A stretch of 64,000 nucleotides of DNA from Mustelus asterias (Eukaryota). The stretch is taken from NCBI RefSeq assembly GCF_964213995.1, contig NC_135830.1, forward strand, positions 12,152,001 through 12,216,000. The letters are read 5' to 3'. Positions 461 through 63,670 of the stretch are shown here, piece by piece. Below the pieces are notes generated by a model that did no database searches, was not told the DNA's origin, and saw nothing but the letters and a program-made list of their open reading frames with translations. The stretch's first letter is position 1. Every line of letters starts with the position of its first letter. Both the position numbers and the translations under genes were made by a program.

Positions 461-852
461 TCATTGGCATGAATTAACGGTGTCCATCAGTGCAAGGGAA
501 ATGTTCACAAAACTGGGTTTACCGCTGGATTTGTCAACTGTTCTGTTGATGATCTTCAAGGGGATGGCTTCATGTCCCACCACACAGGAGTAAGAAGCAC
601 CGCTGGACCATTCCTCTGCTGCAATGGATAACAGGCTGTACATGAAGAAGGAGCTATTCCCGCTCTCCGCGACCACCTCGGTGTTCCTTTAGTTCCCAGG
701 ATTCACCGGCTTGTCGTTGACGGTCCACTTGACGAAGATCTCTCGAGGGGAGAAACGTCTCACTAAGCAGCTGAGGGAGACGAATCTCTGAGCGGAGACT
801 TCTTCTGCCGAGGGCAGGAGGACAGAGACGAACGGTTCCCGCGGATTTGGAT
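461..852 (-). pseudogene. IGHM: IgM CH4 exon plus secretory tailpiece ([20 protein letters not shown]), interrupted by in-frame TAA at 689-691
   Basis: Acceptor TTTTCTGCAG; reads [63 protein letters not shown]...YSCVVGHEA; internal donor G|GTAAAC at 523/522 for membrane splicing; tail has NIS glycosylation site and penultimate Cys. Confidence 0.92.
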
Positions 853-1353: not shown

Positions 1354-1662
1354 CTGTTTCCTTGTGGATGGATTTTCTTAAAGGAGTCGGCAGATCCTGA
1401 TGGCTCACCACGCAGTCAAACACAGCCGCACTCAGCCAGGCTTGTGTCGAGATGTTTAAGTTGCTGACCACGCTGTCAGGATCCGCTCCTGGCTTTTCGG
1501 CAATCTCTGATTTCAAATACTTCCTGTCTCGGATCCAGGACACGTTGACTCCATAGGGAGCATTAGAAATGATGCAGGTTAAGGTCAATGTTGCCTCCAG
1601 TAAGACCTGTTCTATTGGTGGTGGCTGTATGGTCACTGTGGTATCAGGGCACTGGGGAGGAT
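1354..1662 (-). CDS. IGHM: IgM CH3 exon ([30 protein letters not shown]...[13 protein letters not shown]...KET)
   Basis: Acceptor TCATTCACAG, donor G|GTGAGC, 309 nt open. Confidence 0.95.
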
Positions 1663-2582: not shown

Positions 2583-2894
2583 CCAGAGATCCGCTGATGT
2601 TCTGACTCTGGGTGAATCCTTGATGAGTGACCTGGCAGGTATAGACTACTTTGCTGAACCATTCCTGAGCGGAGACTGTCAGCCGACTGCTGGCCGAGAA
2701 GTTCCCGTTCACTTCACAGGCGGGAGAGGTGATAATTCCTGAATCCATGGGTTGTCCATTCTTCAGCCACTCCACCGTCATTGACTTTGGCTGGAAATCC
2801 ATGATTGAACAGACGATGGTTGCAAATTTTCTGCTGGTGATTTCTTCACTGGAACTCACGGTGAGGATAACGGTTGGGGGGAGAACGCGTGGGC
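2583..2894 (-). CDS. IGHM: IgM CH2 exon ([13 protein letters not shown]...VCSIMDFQP...WLKNG...YTCQVTH...GSL)
   Basis: Acceptor TTTGTTTGTTGAAG, donor G|GTAAGA, 312 nt open. Confidence 0.95.
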
Positions 2895-3866: not shown

Positions 3867-4166
3867 ATTGCATTCCAATGCTCTTGACTGAGTCTCTGTG
3901 TCGAACCTCACACTTGATTTTGCTGCACTCTCCCTCTGACTGGGTGATGATTAACTGGCTGCTCAAGGTGTAAGTTCCCTTTGCGTTTCTCACTGATGGA
4001 TAAGTCTTAAATCCAGTGTCGATCAGCTGCCCATTTTTCTTCCAGGTCAGTTTGGAGACATCTGGAGAGTAGTCCATCGCCAAACAGCCGTAGGTGATGG
4101 AGCCAGCGGAGTTGTGTTGCTGACAGGAAGAGACGAGGCTGTAGAGAGTGGGCGGAGACGGTGTCG
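3867..4166 (-). CDS. IGHM: IgM CH1 exon ([17 protein letters not shown]...[10 protein letters not shown]...KCEVRH...GMQ)
   Basis: Acceptor TTCTTTCCCAG, donor T|GTAAGT, 300 nt open, C1-set Cys/Trp/Cys. Confidence 0.95.
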
Positions 4167-12340: not shown

Positions 12341-12559
12341 ACAACAACCAAGGATTGAATCCCTCAGCATCTCCTTGTCAATTAACAGTAGAATTTTATA
12401 ACCCCCATTTTAAGCATAATCACATGAAACATTGTTAAGATTTTTAGTACAGAATCCACCAAACCACATTTCAGTGAACAAATGAATTAATAAAATCGAT
12501 AAAAAATATAAAACAAAAGTTCAAGGAAAACAGTTACTAAATAATTGCATGGTTCCTAC

Positions 12560-12607
12560 CTGCAGTCACCGTCACCATGGTCCCTTGTCCCCAGTAGCCA
12601 AAGTAGT
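12560..12607 (-). CDS. IGHJ: JH segment (YFGYWGQGTMVTVTA)
   Basis: WGxG motif; donor G|GTAGGA at 12560/12559; 5' RSS with heptamer 12608-12614, 23-nt spacer, nonamer ACAATAACT 12638-12646. Confidence 0.97.
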
Positions 12608-13000: not shown

Positions 13001-13013
13001 CCACCCCAGTTAT
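13001..13013 (-). other. IGHD: DH2 segment ATAACTGGGGTGG with 12/12 RSS
   Basis: 5' RSS: heptamer 13014-13020, 12-nt spacer, nonamer ACAAATACT 13033-13041. 3' RSS: CACAACA 12994-13000, 12-nt spacer, ACAAAAACC 12973-12981. Confidence 0.93.
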
Positions 13014-13392: not shown

Positions 13393-13406
13393 ACCCACTG
13401 CTGTAT
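13393..13406 (-). other. IGHD: DH1 segment ATACAGCAGTGGGT with 5' 12-RSS and 3' 22-RSS
   Basis: 5' RSS: heptamer 13407-13413, 12-nt spacer, nonamer ACAAAAACT 13426-13434. 3' RSS: CACAGTG 13386-13392, 22-nt spacer, ACAAAAACC 13355-13363. Confidence 0.95.
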
Positions 13407-13806: not shown

Positions 13807-13845
13807 TGTTCTTGTTCGGGTCCATCCCTAGATCCTCTCGCTGTG
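13807..13845 (-). other. VH 3' recombination signal, 23-bp spacer
   Basis: Heptamer CACAGCG (13839-13845), spacer 13816-13838 (23 nt), nonamer ACAAGAACA (13807-13815). Confidence 0.93.
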
Positions 13846-14150
13846 GTCTCTTGCACAGTAATAGATGGCGGTGTCTTCGGTCTTCAGCCTCGTCATTTCC
13901 AAAGAGAAGATGTTGCTTGAAGTGTCTTTGGACGCAGTAAATCGATCCTTAATTGCTGGGGCGTAGTTGTTGCTGGATGAAGTATAGTACCTCACCAGCC
14001 ACTCCAACCCCTGTCCTGGAACCTGTCGGATCCAGTACATGCTGTAGCTGCTAAGATCGAAGCCGCTGGTTTTACAGGTCAGTGTCAGGGAGCCTCCTGG
14101 ACGCCCGGTCTCTGCCTCTGGCTGAGTCAGCACAACCTGCGTCTGGACAC
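13846..14150 (-). CDS. IGHV: VH exon (L-part2 + V): [53 protein letters not shown]...[11 protein letters not shown]
   Basis: Acceptor TTTTTACAG at 14151-14159; open frame with canonical Cys, WIRQ and YYCAR; followed directly by an RSS. Confidence 0.97.
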
Positions 14151-14282: not shown

Positions 14283-14328
14283 CGGATAAGAAAGTCAGCA
14301 ACAAACTGAGAGAAATCGCCGACCTCAT
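14283..14328 (-). CDS. IGHV: IgH leader exon (MRSAISLSLLLTFLS-G)
   Basis: ATG at 14326-14328, hydrophobic 15-codon signal peptide, 46 nt, phase-1 donor G|GTGAGT at 14283/14282. Confidence 0.95.
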
Positions 14329-14520: not shown

Positions 14521-17389
14521 AATGGACTTCCAGATTTACAATAGGTTAATATTAAAATGGACATTTTGTCTGTGTCGGGATATTTGTTTGGCTGAATATG
14601 TTAATTGTATTGTCTCCATTATTTCTGATGGTGATATTGCAGTTCATCATTTCTTTATTTAAAATAACTAATTCCATTGTAGGTGATTTTATTACCACGC
14701 CCCCAAGAAGAGCACAAATCTGAAAATGATGAAATAACATTTTTGGAAAATAAAGAGACCGTCAGTCTGTGTTGCAACAATTCCGGGTCTCTGTCACATT
14801 ACAATAATAAAGCATAATTTATCAGAAGAATTTTTACCGATTTCTGTAACTGAATGCGGAGTATGAACAAAGTGATTGCATTTACAGTGCGGATGGCTAT
14901 CACTGTACAGTTTGGGTTTGGAGATGAGAAGAAACTCTCACACAATACAATGTTTCTCCTTATATTTGTCAAACTGCCCCAATCTCGAAGACAGCCCTTT
15001 GAAAATAATAAGAATTCCGCCCTCCTGATAATTAAATAGTGAGTTGACAGAGAAACATAAAATTAACATCGACTTTTGACAGAGAAGTTAATGAATGGAA
15101 CGGACACGAAGATCATTAAAGTTCTCCTTCAGCATCCAAATCATTGCAGGTCACCCTATCGGCCACCGGCTGTCTAACATTCGCTGGTATTGCGAACACA
15201 GGATATCAGGGCTTTGCGGCACATTGCACAATATCACAAGAATAAATGTTTTATCTTCCATTGAATCAGGTTATGAACTGATCATTTCTCCACTCATTGG
15301 CAGCTATGATTGGAACTCTTCAATAACAGGAATCAGATTATACTGTACAATAGAATAGGGTGTTAATCAGGTACAAGAGACGCTGCTGTTTAAGTGTGAT
15401 ACAGAACGTTCAGAATATTCCAGGAATTCCCGCTGTTCATGTCAGTTTTATGCTGTTCTCTTCATATTATATTTCGATGCATTTTATGCCATTGCACTGA
15501 TTTCAATTGACTGGGGAAATGGGACCATCAACATCTCTCTCTCGCATTTCATGAAGTGGTTAATAAACAGACTTTAAGTATTGGAATGACATTTACTTGG
15601 AAGTTATACAAATGAAAAAGCATCTGGTCACTTTATTGTTTTGCGATACTATTTACTCACATAATGAACAGGACATTGAATGAAAATATTTGATTAGAAT
15701 GATTACGATTTAAAATGTGTCATTCTTGTGGGAATGAAACATTTATTGTTTAAATGGCTGAATCCCATTTTGTCCATTTAGGTTCACGCTAATCTGTCCC
15801 ACACAGTATTTGGCAGCAATCCAGGCTGCTGTCAAATGCTCAAAGTTATTGACAGGAAGCATCTGGGGGTGTTGTGCAGCAGAACAAAGATCTGTTTCCT
15901 CAGTACTGACCGCTTGGCTGCAAGCCAACTTAAAACCCTTCACATTGTCAATGAGGCCTATTTATAAATAAATCTACCCAGTAACAGGACTGGAGGCACT
16001 TTAATTTTTAAAAGTAGTAAATCTGGATGAATTTTTCCCATCTCTAATGAAGGAATTTCATGCAGCTTCTCTGGCACCCTGTTGGCAACAATGGTGATTT
16101 TTCCAACACATCAGGATATTGTGATAGATGGATAGAAAGAATTACAGGCAAACTGAGAAATGTCTCAGAGAGACGATACATGAACATGTATGTTTGTATT
16201 TTCTTTCCCTTTATCTTTCCATGGGATGTTTGGATGCAAAGACCGGCACTTTTTGTCTGTCCCAAATTCCCTTGAACTGACTGGTTTTCTAGGCCACTTC
16301 TGAACATATTAAGGAGTCAGCTATTTTGCTGTCCATCTGGAGTCACATCCTTGTGACACCAGGTAGCGATGGCAGATTTCACTCATTGGGGAATCAGAGA
16401 GGGTCCGATGGTCGCCATTTGTATCTGTTCCCTATTTATTATTTGAATTCAAATTCCACCAGCTGCAATGCTCCGATTTAAATCCCTGTCCCCACATCAT
16501 TGTCCTGGGCCTCTGGATCACTGGGCCACTTCAATTAATATTACGTCACCATCTGCGCAAACAATAAATGAATGATTGTGTTGATGCAAGAATGAATGAC
16601 CGTTGAATGAATGATATGAATATCAATTGGATTGCTGAAGATTTTGATGGAGGAATCAGTGAACGGATGGATGCATTGTTAAATGGTACTGAAAGATGCT
16701 GTTCCACATTCACATATTTGTACTTGACTGGTTCATAAATTGAAACAGTTCCTTGATTCCATTTCTGTCAGTGTAATAACTTCAATACTTCCAGAGGGTC
16801 TGGGTGAAATCAAACCCGATTTTCCAGGGAGTTAGCAAACTGATCCTCACGAAAAGAAGAGGGGATTTTCCTGCGGCACGGATGGTTCATTTCTCTGCTG
16901 ATGCTGAATATTCATATCCAAGATCGAAAGAGGGAACATGATTTGGCTGAGGAGGGAGGATTGTAATATTTGAAACATGTACAGCTAATCACTCAACATG
17001 CCCTCACCCAAATTAGTGAAGGTAACAGGCTGTAAATAAATAATGTGGCAACAGATATATTGTGAAACTCACTGGACAACTACAAGTGTTACATTATTTC
17101 CCAAAACAATGTAATAATGAATCGGGATTTAAAAATTCAGTAAAATCATATAAGGTGCCAGGTAGTTTAATTTTGATCATCACTTTGGAAATCATCACAT
17201 CAGCTATATATCAGGAGTTTAAAGCGCAGAGACTGCTGGGTAGCGACTCATGATCCTCAGTCTAAATTCATTCAATTTCCCACTGCATTCTGGGACAGGT
17301 TTCTATCCTTGGTGACAAAAAGGCCAATACAATGTCAAGAAATGTTAATATCAATGAATTATTCAAAGCAAAGTTGTATAGAATGAAAC

Positions 17390-19899: not shown

Positions 19900-22200
19900 A
19901 TGTCCGGTCAGGTCTTCAAAGTTTCGGTAGGGGAACATGTGGCAAATAGTGACCACAATTCTGTTAACTTTAGGATAGTGATGGAAAAGGATGAGTGGTG
20001 TCCCAAGGGTAAGGTGTTGGATTGGGGAAGGCTAACTTTAGTGGGATTAGGCAGAAATTGGCAGCTCTTGATTGGGAGAGGATGTTTGAGGGTAAATCCA
20101 CATCTCGCATGTGGAAGTCTTTTAAGGAACAGTTGTTAGGGCTGCAGGACAGGCATGTGCCTGTACAAAAGAAGGATAGGAAGAGTAGGATTCGAGAACC
20201 GTGGATAACCAGGGAAATTGAGGGACTGGTCAAAAAGAAAAGAGAGGCGTATGTTAGGTTCAGGCAGCTAAAAACGGAGGGAGATCTGGAGGAGTACAAA
20301 GAACATAGGAAAGAATTCAAACGGGGAATTAGAAGGGCAAAAAGGGGTCACGACATGTCCTTGGCAGACAGGATTAAGGAGTATCCCAAGGCATTTTATT
20401 CATACGTTAGGAACAAAAGGGTTGTCAGGGAAAAAATCGGACCTCTCAGGGACAAAAGTGGGGAATTATGCTTGGAGCCCAAAGAAGTAGGGGAGATCCT
20501 AAATGAATACTTTGCTTCGGTATTCACAAAGGAGAGGGATGTGTTGACTCGGAGTGTCTCGGAGGGGAGTGTTGAACCGTTGGAGAAAATCTCCATTACA
20601 AGGGAGGAAGTGTTAGGTTTGTTAGAGAATATAAAGTCTGACAAATCCCCAGGGCCTGATGGAATCTGTCCAAGGCTGCTCAGGGAGACGAGAGATGAAA
20701 TCGCTGGGCCTCTGATGTAAATCTTTGTCTCATCACTGGACACAGGTGAGGTCCCAGAGGATTGGAGGATAGCTAATGTGGCCCCGTTATTTAAGAAGGG
20801 TAGGAAGGATAACCCAGGTAATTATAGGCCGGTGAGCTCGACGTCCGTGGTGGGGAAGTTGTTGGAGAAGATTCGTAGAGATCGGATGTATGCGCATTTA
20901 GAAAGGAATAAACTCATTCACGATAGTCAGCATGGTTTTGTGAGAGGGAGGTCATGCCTCACTAACCTGGTGGAGTTTTTTGAAGAAGTGACTAGAATGG
21001 TTGACGAGGGAAGGGCCGTGGAAATCGTCTATATGGACTTTAGTAAAGCGTTTGACAAAGTCCCTCATGGTAGGCTGGTGCAAAAGGTTGGATCTCATGG
21101 GATGAAGGGGAGGTGGCTAGATGGGTGGAGAACTGGCTTGGTCACAGAAGACAGAGGGTGGTAGTGGAAGGGTCTTTTTCCGGCTGGAGGCCTGTGACTA
21201 GTGGTGTTCCGCAGGGCTCTGTATTGGGACCTCTGCTGTTTGTGATTTATATAAACGATCTGGAAGAAGGTGTAACTGGGGTGATCAGTAAGTTTGCGGA
21301 CGACACAAAATTGGCAGGATTTGCAGATAGTGAGGAGCATTGTCAGAGGCTACAGAAGGATATAGATAGGCTGGAAATTTGGGCAAAGAAATGGCAGATG
21401 GAGTTCAATCCTGATGAATGCGAAGTGATGCATTTTGGTAGAAATAATGTAGGGAGGAGCTATACGATAAATGGCAGAACCATAAAGGGTGTAGAAACGC
21501 AGAGGGACCTGGGTGTGCAAGTCCACAGATCTTTGAAGGTGTCGTCACAGGTGAAGAAGGTGGTGAAGAAGGCATAATGCATGCTTGCCTTTATAGGACG
21601 GGGCATGGAGTATAAAAGTTGGGGTCTGATGTTGCAGATGTATAGAACGTTGGTTCGGCCGCATTTGGAATACTGCGTCGAGTTCTGGTCGCCACACTAC
21701 CAGAAGGACGTGGAGGCTTTGGAGAGAGTACAGAAGAGGTTTACCAGGATGTTGCCTGGTATGGAGGGGCTTAGTTCTGAGGAGAGATTGGGTAAACTGG
21801 GGTTGTTCTCACTGAAAGACGGAGGATGAGTGGAGACTTAATAGAGGTGTATAAAATTATGAAAGGCATAGATAGGGTGAACGGTGGGAAGCTTTCCCCC
21901 AGGTCGGTGGTGACGTTCACGAGGGGTCATAGGTTCAAGGTGAAGGGGGGGGGGGAGGTTTAACACAGATATCAGAAGGACATATTTTACACAGAGGGTC
22001 GTGGGGGCCTGGAATGCGCTGCCAGGCAAGGTGGTGGAGGCGGACACACTGGGAACGTTTAAGACTTATCTAGATAGCCACATGAACAGAGTGGGAATGG
22101 AGGGATACAAAAGAATGGTCTAGTTTGGACCAGGGAGCGGCACGGGCTTGGAGGGCCGAAGGGCCTGTTCCTGTGCTGTATTGTTCTTTGTTCTTTGTTC
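19900..22200 (+). mobile_element. Young CR1-type (HER1-like) LINE, 5'-truncated, ORF2 with stops and frameshifts
   Basis: ORFs 20022-21829 with KSPGPDG, NYRPVS, QHGF, YMDFSKAFDKV, GVPQGSVLGP, KFADD; (ttgttct)n tail at about 22181-22200. Confidence 0.95.
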
Positions 22201-28992: not shown

Positions 28993-30824
28993 AATAAATT
29001 AACAAAATAAACTCCTTATCTGATACAATGTTACACCATATATTTTCCCAACAGCTCCTTAACCCTGTGAAAATTAACGGTGAAAGAAAACTTCTTGACT
29101 TACAATTAAGCATTGAGTTGACAGAGAAACATAAAATTGACATTGACTTTTGACAAAGAAGCTAATGAATTAGAACGGACACGGCAATCAGGAAAGTTCT
29201 CCTTCAGCATCCAAATCATGACAGTTCATTTTATTGGCGAGCAGCTGGTATTGGGAACACAAGATATCAGGACTTTGCGGCATAATGCACAATATCACAA
29301 GAATAAATATTTTATCTTTCACTGAACCAGGTTATGAACTGGTCATTTCTTCGCTCATTGGCAGTTATGAGAGGGACTGTTAAATAATTGAAATCAGATT
29401 ATGCTGGACAAAAGAACACGTTATACATCAGGTATAAGTTTTTAATTAGGTTCAGAACATTGAGAATATTCCAGAAATTCCCGCTGTTCAAGGCAGATAT
29501 ATGATTTTCTTTTACTTTTAATTATTTTCATTTTTGTGCCTTTACACTGATCTCATGGGACTGAGGGATTGGGGACATCAGCATCTTTTTCTTGCACTTC
29601 ATGAAGTTGTTCATAAAGAGGCTTTAATTGTTGGAAGGACATTTCTTTGGAAGCTATACAAATGAAATAGCATCAAGTCAATTGACTAGTTTCCGATACA
29701 TTTTAATCACATAATGAAAAGTGCATTCATTTAAAATATTTGTTTCGAAGGAAAAACATTTAAAATGTGCCTTCCTTTTGGGAATAAAACATTTATTGTA
29801 TAACTGACGAAGTCCCATGTTATCCTTACAGATTCACGTTAATCTGTCCTACGCAGTATTTGGCAACTGTCCAGCCTGCTGCCAAATACCCAAAAATATT
29901 TACAGGAAGCATCTGAGGGTGTTTGTTCAGTAAATCAAAAACCTGTTTCCTCAGTACTGAACACTTGGCTGCAAGCCAACTTCAAACTCTCAGCATTGTC
30001 AATGGGGCCTATTTATAAACAAATCGACCCAGCAACAGTCCTGGAGGCAATTTAATTATTTTTAAGTTGCAAACATCTATGAATGTTTCCCATTTCTTCG
30101 GAAAAGAAAGTATTCAGCTTCTCTGGCACCTTGTTAGCAACAATAATGATCTCTCCAACACAACAAAACATTGATGGATGGATATAAAAAAATACCGGCA
30201 GATTATGAGAGTTGATTCAGAGAGGTGATATATTTTATACTAGATAAACATCTATGCTTGTGTTTTCTTTCACTTCATTCTTCCATGGGACGTGAGAATC
30301 TCTGGAAAGGCCAACATTTATTCCCTTTGCCTAATTTCTTTTGAACTGAGTGGTATACTAGTGCATCTCAGAAGGCATTGCCCAGTTAGTTATATTGCTG
30401 TCCGTCTGCAGTCACATCCTGATGAGACCAGGTAGGGATGGCAGTTTTCCTTCATTGGGGAATCAGAGAGGATAATCTGGTCGCTGTCAGGACGTATTCC
30501 AGATTTATTGATTGAATTCAAATTCCAACAGCTGCCAGGGTCGGATTTAATCTCGTGTCTCCACATCATTGGCCTGGGCTTCTGGATTACTGGTACACTG
30601 GCATTAATATTACGCCACCATCTACTCAGCAATAAAGGAATAATTGCGTTGATGCAGGGATGGACGATAGTTGGATGCCTGAATGTTTTGCTTGAGAAAT
30701 CAGAGAGTGGACGGATGGATGGGACGATAGCTGGTCCAAAAATTTGCTGTTCTACATTCGCATATTTGTGATTTACTACTTCAAAAATCGAAGCAGGTCC
30801 TTTATTCCAAGTGTGTTAGTATAT

Positions 30825-51749: not shown

Positions 51750-53383
51750 AGAACAACAAAGAACAAAGAACAGAACAGCACAGGAAACAGGCCCTTCGGC
51801 CCTCCAAGCCAGTGCAGCTCCTTGGTCCAACTCGACCAATCGTTTGTATCCCTCCATTCCAAGGCTGCTCATGTGACTATCCAGGTAAGTCTTAAACGAT
51901 GCCAGTGTGCCTGCCTCCACCACCCTACTTGGCAGCGCATTCCAGGCCCCCACCACCCTCTGTGTAAAAAACGTCCCTCTGATATCTGAGGTATACTTCG
52001 CCCCTCTCACCTTGAGCCCGTGACCCCTCGTGATCGTCACCTCCGACCTGGGAAAAAGCTTCCCACTGTTCACCCTATCTATCCCCTTCACAATCTTGTA
52101 CACCTCTATTAGATCTCCCCTCATTCTCCGTCTTTCCAGGGAGAACAAACCCAGTTTACCCAATCTCTCCTCATAGCTAAGACCCTCCATACCAGGCAAC
52201 ATCCTGGTAAACCTTCTCTGCACTCTCCCTAACGCCTCCACGTCCTTCTGGTAGTGTGGCGACCAGAACTGGACGCAGTACTCCAAATGTGGCCTAACCA
52301 GCGTTCTATACAGCTGCATCATCAGACTCCAGCTTTTATACTCTATACCCCGTCCTATAAAGGCAGGCATACCATATGCCTTCTTCACCACCTTCTCCAC
52401 CTGTGTTGCCACCTTCAAGGATTTGTGGACTTGCACACCTAGGTCCCTCTGTGTTTCTATACTCCGGATGACTCTGCCATTTATTGAATAACTCCTCCCT
52501 ACATTATTTCTTCCAAAATGCATCACTTCGCATTCATCCGGATTAAACTCCATCTGCCACCTCTCCGCCCAATTTTCCAGCCTATCTATATCCTGCTGTA
52601 TTGCCCGACAGTGCCCTTCGCTATACGCAAGTCCAGTCATCTTCGTGTCATCCTCAAACTTGCTGATTACACCAGTTACACCTTCTTCCAAATCATTTAT
52701 ATATATCACAAATATCAGAGGCCCCAGTACAGAGCCCTGCGGAACACCACTGGTCACAGACCTCCAGCCGGAAAAAGACCCTTCGACCACTACCCTCTGT
52801 CTCCTATGGCCAAGCCAGTTCTCCACCCATCTAGCCACTTCTCCTTGTATCCCATGAGCCTTAACCTTCTTAACCAACCTGCCATGTGGGACTTTGTCAA
52901 ATGCCTTACTGAAATCCATATAGACGACATCCACGGCCCTTCCTTCATCAACCGTTTTTGTCACTTCCTCAAAAAACTCCACCAAATTTGTAAGGCACGA
53001 CCTCCCTCTTACAAAACCATGCTGTCTGTCACTAATGAGATTGTTCCGTTCTAAATGCACATACATCCTGTCTCTAAGAATCCTCTCCAACAACTTCCCT
53101 ACCACGGATGTCAAGCTCACCGGCCTATAATTTCCTAGGTTATCCCTGCTACCCTTCTTAAACAACGGGACCACATTCGCTATCCTCCAATCCTCAGGGA
53201 CCTCACCCGTGCCCAAAGAAGCGACAAAGATTTCCGTCAGAGGCCCAGCAATTTCATCTCTCATCTCCCTGAGCAGTCGAGGATAGATGCCATCAGGCCC
53301 TGGGGCTTTGTCAGTTTTAATGTTCCCTAAAAAACCTAACACTTCCTCTCTTGTAATGGAGATTTTCTCTAACGGGTCTACCA
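51750..53383 (-). mobile_element. Young CR1-type LINE, 5'-truncated, uninterrupted 545-codon RT-region ORF
   Basis: ORF 51747-53384 contains the RT motifs without stops; (aagaac)n tail at 51750-51780; catalytic motif reads FEDD rather than FADD. Confidence 0.95.
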
Positions 53384-56276
53384 TGATTGATTCCCCCCCT
53401 GGGAATAACAGCTCTTAGTCAGGTGGAGTCAGTCACTCTTGTGGCTGTCATCGGTTTCCAATCCGTGTTTGCCACACAAATCCCTGCGTCACTCATCATG
53501 ACAAAGAAACCCGCGCAAGGCCCTAGAAACGATTGCTTCCTTATATCAGGTCCCAGTCTGACTCTGGGTCTAGCTATCTCTGTTAGTGATACACTGGAAC
53601 CAGTCATTCCAATTATAATGTTCTAATTCTCTATGATTATCTTTGGAAACCGTTACCCAATCAGTTGTGAATTGGAACCTATATCCGGTTCTGTTACGGT
53701 TGACACCTGCCAGTTATTATTGGACAAATTACTTTGTTCTGGAATGCTCACACGCAAAAAAAAACGTTTAATTAAATGTTATATCATGTTCTGTCTTTCT
53801 TCTTCTATATATCCCATACATTGGTTTACATGACTCTCCCGGCCAGTTTATGTTATCGTTGCGCCAGCATATCTGTCTACATTAACTGAGATTCTGTCTC
53901 TGTTGTTACTGCATAATTTTAAATCATTTATGGGATGTGGGCATCACTGGCATCTGTTGCCCTTTTCTAATTGCCCTGACAAAATGGTGATGAGCTGCCA
54001 TCTTGAACAACAGCAGTCCATGTTCACCAGGCAATATCACGGTTTATATCACACAAGGTCTGGCCACTCTTATGATACACCTGATTCATCGTATTACCGA
54101 GATTGTACAACCTATAGACAATAGAAAATATTTAGGATGGTTAGCATGGAATTGGTGAATGTAACGGTTAAACAGAAATATTGCTCCTTCTGTGAAGAGC
54201 AGCAGATGTTTCAATCCTTTGGATCAATGGGAATATGAAGTCTCAGAATTACACGTGTAATTATCTCCTGGCGGCTATATGTCCAGGTTCATTTTCGCCA
54301 TTATTTTCACAAATCAGCACATAATTGAGTTTTTATCAGGAATTTCAGTGAGACACTGAGAAGATAAATTTCCAGTCATTTCCTCGTCATTCGAGATGGG
54401 ATTTATCCATTTTCCAACAGATCTCTAAAGGCAGATAAAGCAACGCTGGGAACAAAGTAGACTGAAATAATTTTGCATACATGAGCACACAACAGAATAG
54501 TTGTCAATAAATAGTGACATATCTAATGTCATTCAGTTGAAATACATGAACTGTTTGGTCTTTTCATGCACTCATGGAAGGCAGAGATGGGCTGAAGGTT
54601 ATCTCTGGGAAAACTGAAGGGAAATTGTTAAAAGAGATTATTGTTCCAAAGGGAGTTATTAGAAAATAGAATGTTTAATATAAATAAGTACGCAAATATC
54701 TTAGCACAGAACTGATGTGGTATTTCTTAGACATAGAACCATAGAACCCCTACAGTTCAGAAAACTGGTCCACCGAGTCTGCATCCTACCATGGGCCTCC
54801 CGCTTGCCCTATCCCCGTTAGCCCCGCACGATTACCACGGCTAATACACATACCCACATGACGCAAAGGGGCAATTGTGCCTGGCCATTCCGACTAACAT
54901 GATCTGTTTTAACCTAAACGAGGGATAGGCTTTTGTGGAGCAACACAGAGACAAGGCCGAGTGCACCAATTATTGATACAGCACCTGTACTAAAATGAAT
55001 GGAGGCTGCGTCGAGTTCATTCATTACTGAGAGCGTATAGAGCGTATTACTAACCAGCGTAGTGTTTCCTCATTTAAACAGAGACATGCAGTCTGCAGTT
55101 GTTACAAAGACAAGGTATATTCTAATATAAGTAGAGACAGTGTGCACTGTAATTTAAACTAAGACAGGTTCTAGTGTGATGTAAACTCACATCGGCGCTT
55201 TCAGAATATAGGGATATGCTCTAGTGTGATATAAACAGAGATGTGGCCCAGTGGAATAAAAAGTGAGGCAATGCAGAGACAAGTAATAATTGAGAGAGGA
55301 TAATGTGTGAAATGAGCAGTGATATGGATTAGCGCAGTAATAAAGTAGAGAACATCTCACGCAATAAAACTGACACCAGGCCTCGTGTAATTTTGTCTGA
55401 TGCTGGGCATTGTATGACATAAACTGAGACAACACCTTATGCAGTAATTTCAGACCAAGGCCTTAGATTGATATAAGATTTGACAGGGGCAAGTGCAGCA
55501 ATAAATGAAACAAGAAAGAGGACAATAATTAGAGACAGGATATGATTCGGTATAAACAGGGAGGTGGGATGGTGCAGCAGTGATTGAGATATTGTCGATG
55601 TTTGCATATACATGGCAGGTTCCAGCAATGTAATAACTCGTGTAATACAAACAGAAACATGTTCTGCTGCAGTATCAGGAGTAACAACAGAGATATGGAG
55701 TAGCATGGCAATAGCCGAGAATTAATTCCGTGCTGTCATAACTGCCAGAGTATACGGCGTAATATCAAATGAGACGTGGTGCAGTGTAGATGTTGCTGAG
55801 TACAGAATCAACTGAGACTTGTTGTCATATAATCAGAAGTATGTGTCATATAAACTGGGTCTAGTTTGGGACAGAGACTGAGTCTATTGCAGCGATAACT
55901 GAGACGATCTGTTTCGTGTCGTGCCAAAAAGCACGATTTCACTGCCATCTCCTGGATCACCTCTGCTATTGCAGATGTTGGGAAATGCTGATTTTAGTTG
56001 CTGTTTCTTACTATTTAATGGGCTGTATTCCCAGCAGGCAAGGCCAATGCATATGTTGGCAATCTGGATTTATTGGCTTTCTAGAACATCTCAGAGGGCG
56101 GGGAAGCACCAATCGCTTGTGGGCCTGGAGTCATCTATCGGCCAAACTGGGAAACGATGGACAGTTTCCTTTTCTGCTGGGCATCAGAGAATCTGTTATA
56201 TTTCTTGTAATGGCCGCAATTACGGAAACGAGCTTTAAATTCAAAATTGCAATTGCATTTCCAAACCCACGTTCTG

Positions 56277-58003
56277 TTATGGAGCCCAAAGAAGTAGGGG
56301 AGATCCTAAATGAATATTTTGCGTCGGTATTCACAAAGGAGAGGGATGTCTTGACTGGGAGTGTCTCGGAGCGGAGTGTTGAACCGTTGGAGAAAATCTC
56401 CATTACAAGGGAGGAAGTGTTAGGTTTGTTGGAGAATATAAAGACTGACAAATCCCCAGGGCCTGATGGAATCTATCCAAGGCTGCTCAGGGAGACGAGA
56501 GATGAAATCGCTGGGCCTCTGACGCAAATCTTTGTCTCGTCACTGGACGCAGGTGAGGTCCCAGAGGATTGGAGGATAGCTAATGTGGTCCCGTTATTTA
56601 AGAAGGGTAGGAAGGATAACCCGGGTAATTATAGGTCGGTGAGCTTGACGTCCGTGGTGGGGAAGTTGTTGGAGAAGATTCTTAGAGATAGGATGTACAC
56701 GCATTTAGAAATGATTAAACTCATTAACGATAGTCAGCATGATTTTGTGAGAGGGTGGCCATGCCTCACTAACCTGGTGGAGTTTTTTGAAGAAGTGACC
56801 AGAATGGTTGACGAGGAAAGGGCCGTGGATATCGTCTATATGAACTTTAGTAAAGCGTTTGACAAAGTCCCTCATGGTAGGCTAGTGAAAAAGGTTGGAT
56901 CTCATGGGATAAAGGGGGAGGTGGTTAGATGGGTGGAGAACTGGCTTGGTCACAGAAGACAGAGGGTGGTAGTGGAAGGGTCTTTTTCCGGCTGGAGGCC
57001 TGTGACTAGTGGTGTTCCGCAGGGCTATGTATTGGGACCTCTGCTGTTTGTGATTTATATAAACAATCTGGAAGAAGGTGTAACTGGGGTGATCAGTAAG
57101 TTTGCGGACGACACAAAATTGGCAGGACTTGCAGATAGTGAGGAGCATTGTCAGAAGCTACGGAAGGATATAGATAGGCTGGAAATTTGGGCAAAAAAAT
57201 GGCAAATGGAGTTCAATCCTGATCAATGCGAAGTGATGCATTTTGGTAGAAATAATGTAGGGAGGAGCTATACGATAAATGGCAGAACCATAAAGGGTGT
57301 AGATACATAGAGGGACCTGGGTGTACAAGTCCACAGATCCTTGAAGGTGACGTCACAGGTGGAGAAGGTGGTGAAGTAGGGATATGGCATGCTTGCCTTT
57401 ACAGGACGGGGCATAGAGTATAAAAGTTGGGGTCTGATGTTGCAGATGTATAGAACGTTGGTTCGGCCGCATTTGGAATACTGCGTCCAGTTCTGATCGC
57501 CACACTACCAGAAGGACGTGGAGGCTTTGGAGAGAGTACAGAGGAGGTTTACCAGGATGTTGCCTGGTATGGAGGGGCTTAGTTATGAGGAGAGATTGGG
57601 GAAACTGGGGATGTTCTCCCTGGAAAGACGGAGGATGAGGGGAGACTTAATAGAGGTGTATAAAATTATGAAAGGCATAGATAGGGTGAACGGTGGGAAG
57701 CTTTTCCCCAGGTCAGTGGTGACATTCACGGGGGGTCATAGGTTCAAGTTGAAGGGGGGGTAGGTTTAACACAGATATCAGAAGGACATATTTTACACAG
57801 AGGGTGGTGGGGGCCTGGAATGCGCTGCTGGGCAAGGTGGTGGAGGCGGACACACTGGGAACGTTTAAGACTTATTTAGATAGCCATATGAACGGAGTGG
57901 GAATGGAGGGATACAACAGAATGGTCTAGTTTGGACCAGGGAGCGGCACGGGTTTGGAGGGCCGAAGGGCCTGTTCCTGTGCTGTATTGTTCTTTGTTCT
58001 TTG
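56277..58003 (+). mobile_element. Young CR1-type LINE, 5'-truncated; same subfamily as 19900-22200
   Basis: ORF from MEPKEVGEILNEYF through KFADD; later stops; (ttgttct)n tail. Confidence 0.95.
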
Positions 58004-59499
58004 TGGTTGGATTTGAAAATATATCTTGAGAAAATTTCCTTCCCTCAGAATTACTCTCCCAGTGATATTACTACTCTGCCACTGTCTCACTTTTCCACGT
58101 TGGTAAATCACTTGCAGCAGAGAAGAAGGCCATTTTGAAGCGTCATTTGTGTGTTGGTCCTGTAAATGAGCAATTCATCCAATAACACTCTGTACCCCAC
58201 AGTCCAGCATTTTGTTCATTTTCAGACAATAATCCAATCCCACTTTGAATCCATCAATTGGCGCTACCTGCACCAGACTCTCAAACAGCACATTCCAGAT
58301 CTGAATCACTCACTGTCTGAAAAAGTTTTTCGTTATGTCTCCATGCTTCTTTCACCAATTAACTTCAACCGCGCACTCTGTGACAAGATCAAAGAACAAG
58401 AACAAAGAACAATACAGCACAGGAACAGGCCCTTCGGCCCACCAAGCCCTCGCCGCTCCCTGGTCCAAACTAGATCCTTCTGCCATTGAACAATTCCTCT
58501 CTTTCTACTCTGTCAAGACCCCTCAGGATTTTGAAGGGCTCAATGGGATCACATCAGTCACTTCCTGTCAAGGAAATCAGTCCGAACATCTCCAATATAT
58601 TTTCGTAACTGAAATTTCTGATCTCTGGAACTAATCTCGTGTATTTCCCCTGCATCCAGCCTATTGGCTTTACATTCCTCCCTACGTTTGGTGCCCAGAT
58701 TTGGACGCAATTTTTCAGTTGACTATTTTCCATTGCTTTCTACACATTTAGCATAATTTCGTTGCTTCTGTATCCTTTTCCCCAATAGACAAAGACTGTT
58801 AACTATTTTGTTTACCACCGTTTAAACCTATCTTCCACCATGAATGATTTATGCACATATTCAATCAGGTCCCTCGGCGTCGACACCAACTTTCATAGCG
58901 TTTTCATCATTTCCATTTGTCTCTTCACATTCAGCTTAACAAAACGAATCATGTAACTTTACTCTGCAATAAATTAAATGCCCAATTGCACGCCCATTCC
59001 ACCAATTCGTTTTTTTCGTTCTGAACTTTTGCATGAACTTCTGATGGTTTGCAATGTTTCCAAAATTGTATCATTCACAGATTTTGAAAGTCTGACCTCC
59101 ATACAACGCTCTCGGTCATTTCTATGTCAGGAAGGTCAAGGGTCAATTAACCGATTCCTGGCAACTTCACTACAAGCTTTGTTCCTGTAGGAAAAACAGC
59201 AACGACTTGTTTCCTGGCACTCAGCCAATCACAGAAGGCACGTAATCGCCAAACACGTTGGGACTGGAGTCACCTATGGGCCAAACTGGGAAATAATGGA
59301 AGGTTTCTTTTTCTGCAGGCCATTAGAGAATCTGTTATATTTCCTGTAACGGCCGCAATTACGGAAACGAGCTTCAAATTCAAAATTGCAATTGTATTTT
59401 AAAACCCACGACCTCTTGTAGTTGGATTTGAATATATATCTTGACAAAATTGCCTCGCCTCAGAACTACTCTCCCAGTGATATTGCATTGACTGGGACA

Positions 59500-61900
59500 G
59501 CCATAGTATTAGAGGGTTGGATGGAGAGAAATGTGTTTAGTGTATTCAGGAGGAATTTCTCATTCAGGATGTGGATTTCCTGTCTAGAGCGGGGGCAAAA
59601 CTTGACCTTCTCTTGGGAAATAAGGAAGGGCAGGTGACGGACGTGTCACTGAGCGATCACTTTGGGACCAGTGATCATAATTCTATTAGTTTTAAGATAG
59701 CTATGGAGAATGATAGGTCTGGCCCAAAAGTTAAAATTCTAAGTTGGGTCAAAGCCAATTTTGATGGCATCAGGCAGGAACTTTCAACAGTTAATTGGGG
59801 GGGTCTGTGGAAGGCAAAGGGACGTCTGGTAATTGGGAGGCTTCAAAAGTGTGTTAACCAGCGTTCAGAGTAAGTACATTTCTCTCAGGGTGAACGGCAA
59901 TGCTGGTAGAGGTAGGGAACCCTGGATTACTCGGGATACTGAGGCCCTGGTCAAGAAGAAGAAGGAGGCACATGACATGCATAGGTAGCTGGGATCAGGG
60001 GAATTCCTTGAACGGTATAGCGGGTGTAGGAGTAGAGTTAAGAGAGAAATCAGGAGGGCAAAAAGGGGACACGAGATGGTTTTGGCAGATAAGGCAAAGG
60101 AGAATCCAAAGAGCTTCTACAAATGCATAAATGGCAAAAGAGTAACGAGGGAGAGGATAGGAGCTATTAAGGACCAACAAGGCCATCGATGTGCGGATCC
60201 ACAAGAAATGGGTGAGATCCTAAATGAATAATTCTCATCAGTGTTTATTATTGGGAAAAGCATGAGTGTTAGGAAACTTGGGGAAATAAATAGTGATGTC
60301 TTGAGGAGTGTACATATTACAGAGAAGGAGGTGCTGGAAGTCTTAAAGCGCATCAAGGTCGATAAACCACAGGACCTGATGAACTGTAACAAAGGACATT
60401 ATGCGAGGCTAGGGGGGAAATTGCGTGTCGCCGAGCAGAGATATTTGACTCTGCGAGAGTCACAGGTGAGGGGCCTAGAGATTGGAGGGTGGCAATTGTT
60501 CTGCCTTTGTTTAAAAAGGGCTGCAGGGAAAAGCCTGGGAACTACAGGCCAAAGAGCCTCACATCTGTTGTGGGCAAGTTGTTGGAAGATATTTTGAGAG
60601 ACAGGATCGACAGGCACTTAGATACGCAAGGACTGATTAGGGACATTCAGCATGGCTTTGTGAGTGGAAAATCATGTTTCACAAATTTGATTCAGTTTTC
60701 GAAGGGGGAACCAAGAAGGTAGACGAGGGAGTGCAGTTGATGTTGTCTACATGGACTTCAGCAACGCCTTTGACAAGGTACCACATGGTAGGTTATTGCA
60801 TGAGGTTAAATCTCACGGATCCAGGGTCAGGTAGCTAAATGGATACAAAATTGACGATGACAGAAGCCAGAGGGTGGTTGGAGAGCGATGTTTTTCAAAC
60901 TGGAGACCTTTGACCAGCGGTGTGCCTCATGGATCCGTGCTGTGTCCACTGTTATTTGTCATTTATATTAATGATTTGGATGAGAATATAGGAGGCATGG
61001 TTATTAAGTTTGCAGATGACACCAAGATTGGTGGCATAGTGGACAGTGTAGGTTATCTCGGATTGCAACGGGATCTTGATCAATTGCGCCAGTGGGCTGA
61101 CGAATGGCAGATGGAGTTTAATTTAGACAAATGCGAGGTGATGCATTTTGGTAGATTGAACCAGGGTATGACTTAGTCAGCTAATGATAGGGCGTTGGGG
61201 AAAGTTACAGAACAAAGTGGAGTCACAGGTGGACAGAGTGGTGAAGAAGGCATTTGGCATGCTTGGTTTCATCGATCAGACCATTGAATACAGGAGTTGG
61301 AATGTCTTGTTGAAGTTGTACAAGAGATTGGGAAGGCCACACTTGGAATACTGTGTGCAATTCTGGTCACCCAATTATAGAAAGGATATTATTAAACTAG
61401 AAGGAGTGCAGAAAAGATTCACTAGGATGCTACCGGGACTTGATGGATTGAGTTACAAGGAGAGGCTGGATATACTGGGACTTTTTCCTCTGGAGTGTAG
61501 GAGGCTGAGGGGTGATCTCATAGAGATCTGTAAAATAATGAGGGGCATAGATCAGCTAGATGGTCAATATATTTTACCAAAGTTAGGAGAGACTAAAACT
61601 AGAGGGCAGAAGTTTAAGGTGAGGAGGGAGAGATACAAAAGTGTCCAGAGGGGCAATTTTTTCACATCGGGGGTGGTGAGTGTCTGGGACAAGCTGCCAG
61701 AGATAGTAGTAGAGGCGGATACAATTTTGTCTTTTAAAAAGTATTTAAATAGTGACATGGGTACGATGGGTGTAGAACGATATGGGCCAAATGTGGGCAA
61801 TTGGCATTAGCTTTGGGGTTTTAAAAAAAAGGGCGGCATGGACAAGTTGGGCCGAAGAGCCTGTTTCTATGCTGTAAACCTCTATGATTCTCTGACTCTA
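59500..61900 (+). mobile_element. CR1-type LINE including part of the endonuclease domain, disrupted
   Basis: LDLLLGN...HFGTSDHNSI, NYRPKSLTS, KFADD; ctatgatt/ctctatga tail. Confidence 0.92.
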
Positions 61901-61901
61901 T

Positions 61902-62800
61902 GAGTTCAGGGGGATGGAGTCAGAGGGAATAGAGCAGGGAGAGAGGATCCCTGGGATGATTTTCAGTGTGTTCTGGACGATGATATGAGAGGGAATGGAG
62001 CAGAGATCGAGGTTCCCTGGGGTGATATTCAGTGAGTTCAGAGCGATGCTATCAGAGGGAATGGAGCAGAGAGAGAAGAGCCCTGGGGTGATGCTCAGTG
62101 TGTTCAGGGCAATGGAGTCAGAGGGGATGGAGCAGGGAGAGAGGATCCATGGGGTGATGCTCAGTCAGGTCAGGGCGATGGAGTCAGAGGGAATGGAGCA
62201 GGGAGAGAGGATCCATGGGGTGATGCTCAGTCAGGTCAGGGCGATGGAGTCAGAGGGAATGGAGCAGGGAAAGAGGATCTCTGGGGTGAAGCTCAGTGAG
62301 GTCAGGGCGATGCTATCAGAGGGAATGGAGGAGGGACAGAGGATTCCTGGGGTGATGTTCGAAGAGTTCAGGGTGATGGAGTCAGAGGGAATGGAGCAGG
62401 GAGAAGGGATCCCTGGGATGATAATCAGTGAGTTCAGGGGGATGGAGTCAGGGGGAATGGAACACGGAGAGAGGATCCCTGGGGCGATGCTCAGTGGGTT
62501 CAGGGCGATGCTATCAGAGGGAATGGAGCAGGGAGAGATGCTCCCTGTGGTGATGTTCAGTGAGTTCAAGAAGATGGAGTCAGAGGGAATCGAGCAGGGA
62601 GAGAGAATCCATGGCTTGATGTTCAGTGAGTTCAGGGGGATGGAGACAGAGGGAATGAAGCAGGGAGAGAGGATACCTGGGGTGATGCTCAGTGAGTTCA
62701 GGGACATGGTATCAGAGGGAATGGAGCAGGGAAAGAGGATCCCTGGACTGATGCGCAGTGAGTTCAGGGGGAAGGAGTCGGAGGTAATGGAGCAGGGACA
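61902..62800 (+). repeat. 66-bp minisatellite, about 13-14 units (gagggaatggagcagggagagaggatccctggggtgatgctcagtgagttcagggcgatggagtca)
   Basis: 22-aa periodicity in ORF 61995-62810. Confidence 0.9.
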
Positions 62801-62814
62801 GTGTTTTTAACCAC

Positions 62815-63670
62815 TAAACTAGTCCTAATTGCCTGCATTTGGTCCAAATCCCTCTATACCAATCTTACTCATGTATCTGTCCAAACACTTTCTAAAAGAC
62901 AATATTGTACCCGCCTCTACTACTAGAACCATAGAACCATAGAAAATTAAGCTCAGAAACAGGCCTTTTGGTCCTTCTTGTCTGTGCCGAACCATTTTTT
63001 GCCTAGTCCCACTGACCTGCACTTGGTCCATATCCCTCCACACCCCTCTCATCTATGAACCCGTCCAAGTTTTTCTTAAATGGTAAAGGTGACCCGCATT
63101 TACCACTTCATTCGGCAGCTCATTCCACACTCCCACCACTCTCTGCGTGAAGAAGCCCCCCCTAATATTCCCTTTAAACTTTTCTCCTTTCACCCTTAAC
63201 CCATGCCCTCTGGTTTTTTTCTCCCCAAGCCTCAGCGGAAAAAGCCTGCTTGCATTCAAACTATCTATACCCATCAAAATCTTATACACCTCTATCAAAT
63301 CTCCCCTCAATCTTCTGCGCTCCAGGGAATAAAGTCCCAACCTGTTCAATCTCTCTCTGTAACTCAGCTTCTCAAGTCCCGGCAACATCCTTGTGAACCT
63401 TCTCTGCACTCTTTCAACCTTATTTACATCTTTCCTGTAACTAGGTGACCAAAACTATACACAATACTCCAAATTCGGCCTCACCAATGCCATATATAAC
63501 CTTACCATAACACTCCAACTTTTATACTCGATACTCCGATTTATAAAGGCCAATGTACCAAAGGCACTCTTTACGACCCTATCCACGTGTGACGTCACTT
63601 TTAGGGAATTCTGTACCTGTATTCACAGATCCCTCTGTTCAACTGCACTCTTCAGAGTCCTACCATTTAC
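62815..63670 (-). mobile_element. Two CR1-type LINE 3' fragments (62815-62925; 62926-63670 with (agaaccat)n tail)
   Basis: QRRFTRMLPG...SLERRRLRGDLIEVYKI motif. Confidence 0.85.

What the first reader, a model, noticed from the sequence alone, without database searches (positions are those of the whole stretch)
689..757. Otherwise intact IgM cluster with a nonsense codon in CH4: a recombination-competent V(D)J donor without a usable constant region
Seen: CH4 reads GGG AAC TAA AGG AAC ACC in frame, 53 codons into the exon, and LVRRFSP has Arg where C1-set domains have the conserved G-F-x-P. Leader, V, D, J, all RSSs, CH1-3 and all splice sites are intact. Established: shark IgH clusters rearrange autonomously; VDJs can be expressed with C exons of other clusters; IgH V segments can trans-rearrange to TCR-delta. 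Inference: the stop precedes the internal TM donor (523), so no membrane BCR can be made and that mRNA would be an NMD target. The secretory mRNA has the stop in its last exon, should escape NMD, and would encode a CH1-3 plus half-CH4 chain lacking the second CH4 Cys and the polymerising tailpiece. The V(D)J could still contribute to the repertoire through inter-cluster switching or trans-rearrangement.
Basis: partly seen in the sequence, partly recalled or inferred. Interest (0 to 1): 0.7.

Follow-up and report, generated by a model that had tools for sequence, protein, structure and literature searches.

The report
Recently broken shark IgM gene copy
One of dozens of near-identical shark IgM antibody gene clusters has a single-letter stop in its last constant exon and is likely an ordinary, recently dead copy; its intact variable part could in principle be borrowed like that of any other cluster, but nothing shows it is kept for that.

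Summary
The in-frame TAA in CH4 (691-689, minus strand) is in the assembly and occurs once in the genome; 29 of 29 paralogous CH4 exons have Tyr. Leader, V, D1, D2, J, RSSs, CH1-3, tail and both TM exons are intact. The copy has 49 private substitutions over 14.6 kb, and its C exons drift at the intron rate (5 of 6 changes alter protein), so a real young pseudogene is likelier than a lone assembly error. Public contigs lack the TAA, but they also lack the five other private letters I could check, so they cannot decide. No selective conservation of V was found. Two other clusters of 35 have C-exon lesions, and shark IgM pseudogenes are published. Verdict: ordinary birth-and-death casualty. Residual use: a unique VH on a dead C is a natural marker for inter-cluster switching; CH3-to-TM1 skipping would be in frame. 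The scan noted other dead or C-less IgM clusters in this genome before.

The parts
14283..14328 (-). Leader exon (MRSAISLSLLLTFLS, phase-1 donor GTGAGT)
   Evidence: no private change vs 39 paralogs
13846..14150 (-). VH exon, open; CDR1 [11 protein letters not shown]2 [10 protein letters not shown]
   Evidence: Pfam V-set E 8.6e-19; 4 aa from nearest paralogs, CDR2 string unique among 40; 49-nt FR1/CDR1 pattern occurs once in the genome
13807..13845 (-). V 23-RSS (CACAGCG / ACAAGAACA); one private spacer change at 13832
13393..13406 (-). D1 with 5' 12-RSS and 3' 22-RSS
   Evidence: D1 with its RSSs identical in several paralogs (e.g. L038, L039, L047)
13001..13013 (-). D2 with 12-RSS on both sides (3' heptamer CACAACA, shared with paralogs)
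12560..12607 (-). JH (YFGYWGQGTMVTVTA) with 5' 23-RSS; donor GTAGGA (private +4 change at 12556)
3867..4166 (-). CH1 exon, open; two private amino-acid changes (3950, 3895)
   Evidence: junctions seen in paralog RNA
2583..2894 (-). CH2 exon, open
   Evidence: junctions in RNA run X5
1354..1662 (-). CH3 exon, open; one private amino-acid change (1588)
   Evidence: junctions in RNA run X5
523..852 (-). CH4 exon to the internal TM donor at 523
   Evidence: C1-set E 5.2e-21 read with X at the stop; CH4-to-TM1 junction as loose end in X5
689..691 (-). Premature TAA at the conserved Tyr of NYK/RNT; removes the second intradomain Cys, the tail and the TM frame
   Evidence: Tyr also in nurse shark and Triakis IgM and human IgG CH3
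755..757 (-). Arg of LVRRFSP: majority-subfamily residue, not a lesion
   Evidence: 29 of 29, 29 of 35, RNA contig
461..522 (-). Secretory tail (…DTVNSCQ*), intact but downstream of the stop; AATAAA at 433 and 424

Best explanation
This is a complete, unrearranged shark IgM heavy-chain minicluster with one stop codon in CH4, likely a real and recently dead copy in a large birth-and-death gene family. The stop is likely one C-to-A change from TAC, the codon of its closest constant-region relatives (C91a/C71a, 98.3%). Predicted behaviour: RAG can still join its V-D-D-J. The membrane mRNA would be an NMD target and encode no anchor, so the cell would get no receptor signal and would go on to rearrange another cluster or die. 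The secretory mRNA would escape junction-dependent NMD but give a chain ending in half a domain with an unpaired Cys, likely held and degraded in the ER (inferred from general Ig folding, not tested). The VDJ is then a passenger. Its V could occasionally be used in TCR-delta chimeras or switched, as with any cluster, without that being why it is intact: it is intact because the copy is young.
For: TAA unique in the assembly; 0 of 29 and 0 of 34 paralogous CH4 exons have a stop there. No near-identical second copy: best C-side relatives 97-98%. 49 private substitutions over 14,575 nt, 22 of them transitions, no own-only inserted base, so the copy has its own history and the TAA is one change among many. 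C exons carry private changes at the intron rate (6/1441 vs 39/10365, Fisher p=0.82); 4 missense, 1 nonsense, 1 silent. In 29 paralogs without C lesions the exon rate is 0.49 of the intron rate with 0 stops in 66 changes. Six random exon changes include a stop with probability about 0.22-0.24. Other C-lesioned clusters exist: C150 (CH2 2-nt deletion, unrearranged intact V-D-D-J) and C437 (CH3 stop); 5 of 40 lack most C exons in the ~20 kb fetched. Literature: nurse shark has 9-12 functional IgM genes and three pseudogenes (PMC5192425 passage); rearrangement is proposed to stop once a viable mu chain is made, and nonfunctional VDJs are transcribed and mutated (PMC2435157 passages).
Against: No read-level proof: at 689 all contig depth in five runs is TAT or TAC. 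The relaxed-selection signal is weak against the paralog ratio (one-sided p=0.06-0.13). The V side has fewer private changes than the C side (4/2769 vs 45/11806, p=0.066 with the enlarged panel; p=0.018 with the V-selected panel). Heterozygous versus fixed is unknown, so this may be a null allele of a living gene.
Confidence: 0.72

Rival explanations
1. Assembly or polishing error: the real codon is TAC (or TAT) and the cluster is a normal functional IgM gene.
For: The region is a segmental family with CH4 exons 98-100% alike. TAA is absent from contigs of five runs, four samples, two studies. It is the only inactivating lesion in the cluster.
Against: The same contigs also lack the other private letters that could be checked (467, 876, 1088, 1588, 3578 read only as the paralog letter where covered), so they do not represent this copy at all; contigs drop rare variants. 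TAA is not a blend of the two paralog states, since neither has A at that place. The copy has 48 other private substitutions and four private missense changes in C.
Confidence: 0.12
2. One reading: the cluster is kept as a V or VDJ donor for TCR-delta trans-rearrangement or inter-cluster switching while its constant region decays.
For: V, RSSs and the region upstream of the leader match intact paralogs. V has 0 private missense changes and the V side has fewer private changes. IgM V exons join TCR D-J-C (PMC5931798 passage), IgH and TCR alpha/delta are linked (PMC12227049 section 6), and V regions are expressed with other clusters' C (PMC4279169). I recall a nurse-shark precedent (IgM G2C/V2C, C-defective, V used in TCR-delta chimeras) but could not read it.
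Against: Only about 1.5 private changes are expected in L+V+J at the C-side rate; P(0 missense)=0.31. The low rate extends to non-coding flanks (1/399 exon vs 3/2370 flank). The same V-low asymmetry occurs in intact clusters (C91c, C112, C71b, C166) and the reverse in others (C89, C124, C123, C479), which points to mosaic exchange. The V is 4 aa from intact clusters. No protein with this V was among 70 hits. Switching is heightened by immunisation and concurrent with hypermutation (PMC4279169), which a receptor-less VDJ does not trigger. Pseudogene rearrangements were not seen by Southern blot in nurse shark (PMC2435157).
Confidence: 0.09
3. The stop is bypassed: CH3 splices straight to TM1, giving a teleost-type membrane IgM without CH4, so B cells can be selected on this VH but can secrete full antibody only after switching to another cluster.
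For: CH3-TM1-TM2 is in frame with no stop; TM exons and their splice sites are intact. Teleost membrane IgM lacks Cmu4 (PMC5192425); shark IgW and IgNAR have short membrane forms (PMC4279169); nonsense-associated exon skipping occurs in Ig RNAs (PMC7072976).
Against: Shark membrane IgM typically has four C domains (PMC4279169). The RNA run shows the CH4-to-TM1 junction and no CH3-to-TM1 loose end among the rows shown (158 rows not shown). CH1, CH3 and TM1 of this copy carry private missense changes at a neutral-looking rate. In-frame skipping follows from the phase-1 exon design and needs no selection.
Confidence: 0.05

Closest known systems
Elasmobranch IgM heavy-chain minicluster (V-D-D-J-Cmu1-4-sec-TM1-TM2); named relatives Triakis scyllium IgM (P0030) and nurse shark IgM (P0027, P0034)
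   Same: Same segment order, RSS spacing, four C1-set exons, secretory tail ending …SCQ and two TM exons; V 73-79% identical to these proteins.
   Different: Stop at the conserved CH4 Tyr; Arg instead of Gly in the CH4 BC loop, which is a family-wide change in this genome.
Nurse shark IgM pseudogenes (G2C; Groups 6-8) (PMC2435157 passages; PMC5192425 passage)
   Same: Non-functional members of a multi-cluster IgM family; G2C is a close sibling of functional Group 2 genes.
   Different: The passages I saw do not state their lesions. That G2C is defective in its C exons and lends its V to TCR-delta chimeras is recalled, not read. The copy here has a single point lesion.
Inter-cluster isotype switching and IgH-V/TCR-delta trans-rearrangement in nurse shark (seen through PMC4279169, PMC5192425, PMC5931798, PMC12227049; primary papers not held)
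   Same: The intact V, 23-RSS and J-C intron are the substrates these routes need.
   Different: No transcript links this VH to another C; these routes are open to all clusters and do not require a dead C.

Membership tests
Shark IgM minicluster | One V, two D, one J with paired 23/12, 22/12, 12/23 RSSs | tested here: met
Shark IgM minicluster | Four C1-set constant exons homologous to Cmu1-4 | tested here: met
   Pfam C1-set on all four; CH4 matches solved mu constant chains and named shark IgM
Shark IgM minicluster | Secretory tail contiguous with CH4, internal donor, TM1 and TM2 exons | tested here: met
   junctions confirmed on paralog RNA
Functional IgM gene | Open reading frame through CH4 | tested here: not met
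   TAA at 691-689
IgM pseudogene (constant-defective) | Inactivating lesion present in the animal's DNA | tested here: inconclusive
   In the assembly; only collapsed contigs available, which lack this copy's checked private letters
IgM pseudogene (constant-defective) | Relaxed selection on C exons | tested here: inconclusive
   Exon rate equals intron rate, 5 of 6 changes non-silent; versus paralogs p=0.06-0.13
IgM pseudogene (constant-defective) | No functional protein made | not testable with these tools
   Predicted from the stop; needs cDNA or protein data
Maintained V(D)J donor | Intact V and RSS | tested here: met
Maintained V(D)J donor | V conserved beyond neutral expectation | tested here: inconclusive
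   No excess over flanks; asymmetry shared with intact clusters; low power
Maintained V(D)J donor | Transcripts joining this VH to TCR-delta or a foreign C | not testable with these tools
   No repertoire reads offered; protein search found no identical V
Maintained V(D)J donor | TCR-delta D-J-C cassette in reach on the same contig | not tested
   No TCR-delta constant sequence was obtained from a tool; earlier scan notes report such cassettes elsewhere in this assembly

The most novel reading that the evidence does not exclude
The cluster is a membrane-only IgM: CH3 splices directly to TM1 (in frame), B cells are selected on its unique VH, and secretion of full antibody requires switching to another cluster's constant region. 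It would be a natural obligate reporter of shark inter-cluster switching and a living parallel to teleost membrane IgM.
Probability: 0.05. Interest if true: 0.65.

Novelty: new member of a known kind. Interest (0 to 1): 0.15.

Why it matters
As a pseudogene it matters little: it is one more casualty in a family of dozens of clusters. Its practical value is as a marker. The VH is distinguishable (49-nt pattern unique in the genome, CDR2 string unique among 40) and its own constant region cannot give a full chain, so any full-length transcript carrying it must come from switching, trans-rearrangement or CH4 skipping. That would allow a background-free count of these events, whose frequency and direction are still open. 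The correction that Arg is the expressed norm also prevents mis-calling most IgM clusters of this genome as defective.

Tried and rejected
Arg as a second lesion: rejected. Read test of the stop: only Logan contigs were offered (5 of 24 runs laid); inconclusive because five checked private letters of the copy are missing too. Search for an allelic or sister copy: none above 98%. V-versus-C asymmetry as evidence of V selection: p rose from 0.018 to 0.066 once C-side relatives were added, and intact clusters show it too. Apparent CH2 stops in C306 and C667 came from my exon boundary and vanished with the right acceptor; they are not counted as lesions. Protein search with V for a switched or chimeric product: 70 hits of 153 candidates, none identical; the seven chimera-sized hits fetched held no recognisable TCR constant region. 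No CH3-to-TM1 loose end among the rows shown (table cut; TM1 not in the laid stretch). Primary papers on switching, nurse shark IgM genes and Ig-TCR chimeras were not held (PMC2590587, PMC3360817, PMC3190574, PMC3839419, PMC3222143, PMC7039070, PMC7909615, PMC12010099); a search for 'nurse shark' plus 'IgM 2C' found 0 papers, and searches gave no paper on a C-defective shark cluster acting as donor, so I do not claim it is unpublished. No absolute dating was attempted. No structure prediction was run, as it could not change the verdict.

Full report
Observation. The minus strand of window 852-461 is an IgM CH4 exon plus secretory tail. It translates as PNPREPF…[16 protein letters not shown]…NPGN*RNTEV…YSCVVGHEA…DKSSGKPSF…NSCQ. 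The TAA at 691-689 follows 53 whole codons, lies between the domain's Cys (residue 29 of the exon) and second Cys (residue 90), and is 166 nt upstream of the internal TM donor at 523. An exact 31-nt pattern across it matches once in the 3.68-Gb assembly. The residue is Tyr in nurse shark and Triakis IgM and aligns with NYKT of human IgG CH3.

Anatomy. Leader 14328-14283, V 14150-13846 with a 23-RSS, D1 13406-13393 (12/22), D2 13013-13001 (12/12), J 12607-12560 (23), CH1 4166-3867, CH2 2894-2583, CH3 1662-1354 are all open with GT/AG sites. TM1 and TM2 lie 2.76-3.04 kb beyond the window's first base and are intact. A spliced RNA run (X5) confirms the CH1/2, CH2/3, CH3/4, J/CH1 and CH4/TM1 junction positions on paralogous transcripts. 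The J donor is GTAGGA where 37 of 39 clusters have GTAAGA; its effect is untested.

The family. A CH4 search gave 107 candidates, of which 40 were scored, all 98-100% identical; a V search gave 192 candidates, 40 scored. Of the 29 paralogous CH4 loci returned, all are open, 25 read TAT AAG and 4 TAC AGG, and all read LVRRFSP. I rebuilt the 40 best V-hit clusters over 20-40 kb each. 35 have CH4: 29 LVRRFSP, 6 LVRGFSP; 22 TAT, 12 TAC, 1 TAA. Point lesions in C occur in 3 of these 35 (this copy, C150 with a 2-nt CH2 deletion behind an unrearranged intact V-D-D-J, C437 with a CH3 stop), and 5 of 40 lack most or all C exons in the stretch fetched. This panel is biased towards V genes like the query and is not a census.

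Real or error. The five runs laid (5 of 24 listed; labelled organism A; contigs only) show only TAT or TAC at 689, the depths summing to the total. But at 467, 876, 1088, 1588 and 3578 they also show only the paralog letter where covered: the copy seems absent from these collapsed contigs, so absence of TAA says little. Indirect evidence favours a real change. No copy above 98% exists in the assembly. Against the 39 clusters plus 57 further loci (many overlapping the same clusters) the copy has 49 private substitutions in 14,575 nt, 22 transitions, and no own-only inserted base. TAA is one step from TAC, the state of its closest C relatives C91a/C71a (98.3%), and is not a blend of the two paralog states.

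Selection. In the C exons 6 private changes fall in 1,441 nt: 4 missense, 1 nonsense, 1 silent, the same density as introns (p=0.82). In 29 paralogs without C lesions, exons carry 0.49 of the intron density and no stop among 66 changes (C150, C437 and clusters with low coverage left out). The contrast is suggestive only (one-sided p=0.06-0.13). For V, the single private change is silent; about 1.5 were expected and P(no missense)=0.31. The V side as a whole has fewer private changes (4/2769 vs 45/11806, p=0.066; p=0.018 before adding C-side relatives), but this includes the non-coding flanks, and intact clusters show the same or the opposite skew, as expected from mosaic exchange between clusters (two J-C intron types at 97-98% and 85%). 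So there is no sign that V is being kept.

How it likely works. Shown: the sequence, the single lesion, the family context. Inferred: RAG can rearrange it, since RSS heptamers and nonamers equal those of paralogs. The membrane mRNA has a stop more than 50 nt upstream of a junction and would be degraded (rule from PMC7072976, passages); it encodes no anchor anyway. Shark B cells are proposed to stop rearranging when a viable mu chain is made, and carry transcribed, mutated nonfunctional VDJs (PMC2435157, passages), so this VDJ would be such a passenger. The secretory mRNA would escape junction-dependent NMD and give a chain with half a CH4; ER retention is my inference, and truncated Ig chains can be toxic to plasma cells (PMC7072976), which would make the copy mildly harmful rather than useful. 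Switching between clusters is heightened by immunisation and concurrent with hypermutation (PMC4279169, passages and section 2 part 1), so a VDJ never selected through its own receptor gains little from it. V-to-TCR-delta joining (PMC5931798 passage; PMC12227049 abstract, section 6, passages) uses only V and its RSS and is indifferent to the C region; this V could take part like any other.

All C exons are phase 1, so CH3 can splice to TM1 in frame with no stop. Teleost membrane IgM is built this way (PMC5192425, passages) and shark IgW and IgNAR have short membrane forms, but shark membrane IgM typically keeps four domains (PMC4279169). I found no evidence of such a splice. It is the most novel reading left, at about 5%.

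Comparison with what is known. It is a shark IgM minicluster by every structural test and fails only the open-frame test. IgM pseudogenes among shark clusters are published (three in nurse shark, PMC5192425; G2C and Groups 6-8, PMC2435157). I recall that the nurse shark G2C gene is defective in its constant exons and that its V appears in TCR-delta chimeras; the primary papers were not held and this comes from no call. If right, even the donor idea has a precedent. Supplements were not consulted. Earlier scan notes describe other dead, C-less or joined IgM clusters and TCR-delta cassettes in this assembly; none near this window.

Verdict. Observation partly confirmed; interpretation partly supported. 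Likely a young constant-defective IgM pseudogene or null allele (0.72); assembly error 0.12; maintained donor 0.09; CH4-skipping membrane form 0.05. New member of a known kind, interest 0.15.

Noticed in passing
window 27625-27420 (minus), upstream flank 29104-30823: Decayed VH relic (43% identical to a paralog V, with a stop and deletions), same orientation as the cluster; its upstream flank is 75% like 15030-16775.
   Followed up: partly
CH4 codon 757-755 and paralogs: Gly-to-Arg change in the CH4 BC loop is carried by 29 of 35 clusters and by expressed RNA, while Triakis and nurse shark IgM have Gly; effect on IgM structure unknown.
   Followed up: partly
40-cluster panel (L037-L065, L126-L145): 12 of 40 clusters are partly or fully germline-joined: 9 with V joined (VD, VDD, VDJ) and 3 with D-D or D-J joined.
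   Followed up: no
C173, C91b, C87b, C71g (L037, L041, L065, L126): JH with one extra T before the WGQG codons, changing YFDY to TTLTT while the frame stays open; 4 of 39 J segments.
   Followed up: no
C150, C194, C479 (L083-L084, L086-L087, L116-L117): TM1 not found within 5.8-8.8 kb downstream of CH4, where it normally lies at about 3.6 kb; C194 and C479 have open C exons and could be secretion-only clusters.
   Followed up: no
C91:775097-789224 and C71:5424601-5438730: Two clusters nearly identical over about 14 kb (0-1 private changes): very recent duplicate or uncollapsed haplotype.
   Followed up: no
J-C intron 12559-8760 across paralogs: Two intron types (97-98% and about 85% to the window) combine freely with different C and TM-region types, showing recombination between clusters in the germ line.
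   Followed up: partly
window 20473-22198, 51752-58008, 60461-63669: LINE-like reverse-transcriptase fragments (class recalled from motifs), including an inverted pair at 51752-53381/56378-58008, and a 66-nt tandem repeat at 61901-62801.
   Followed up: no
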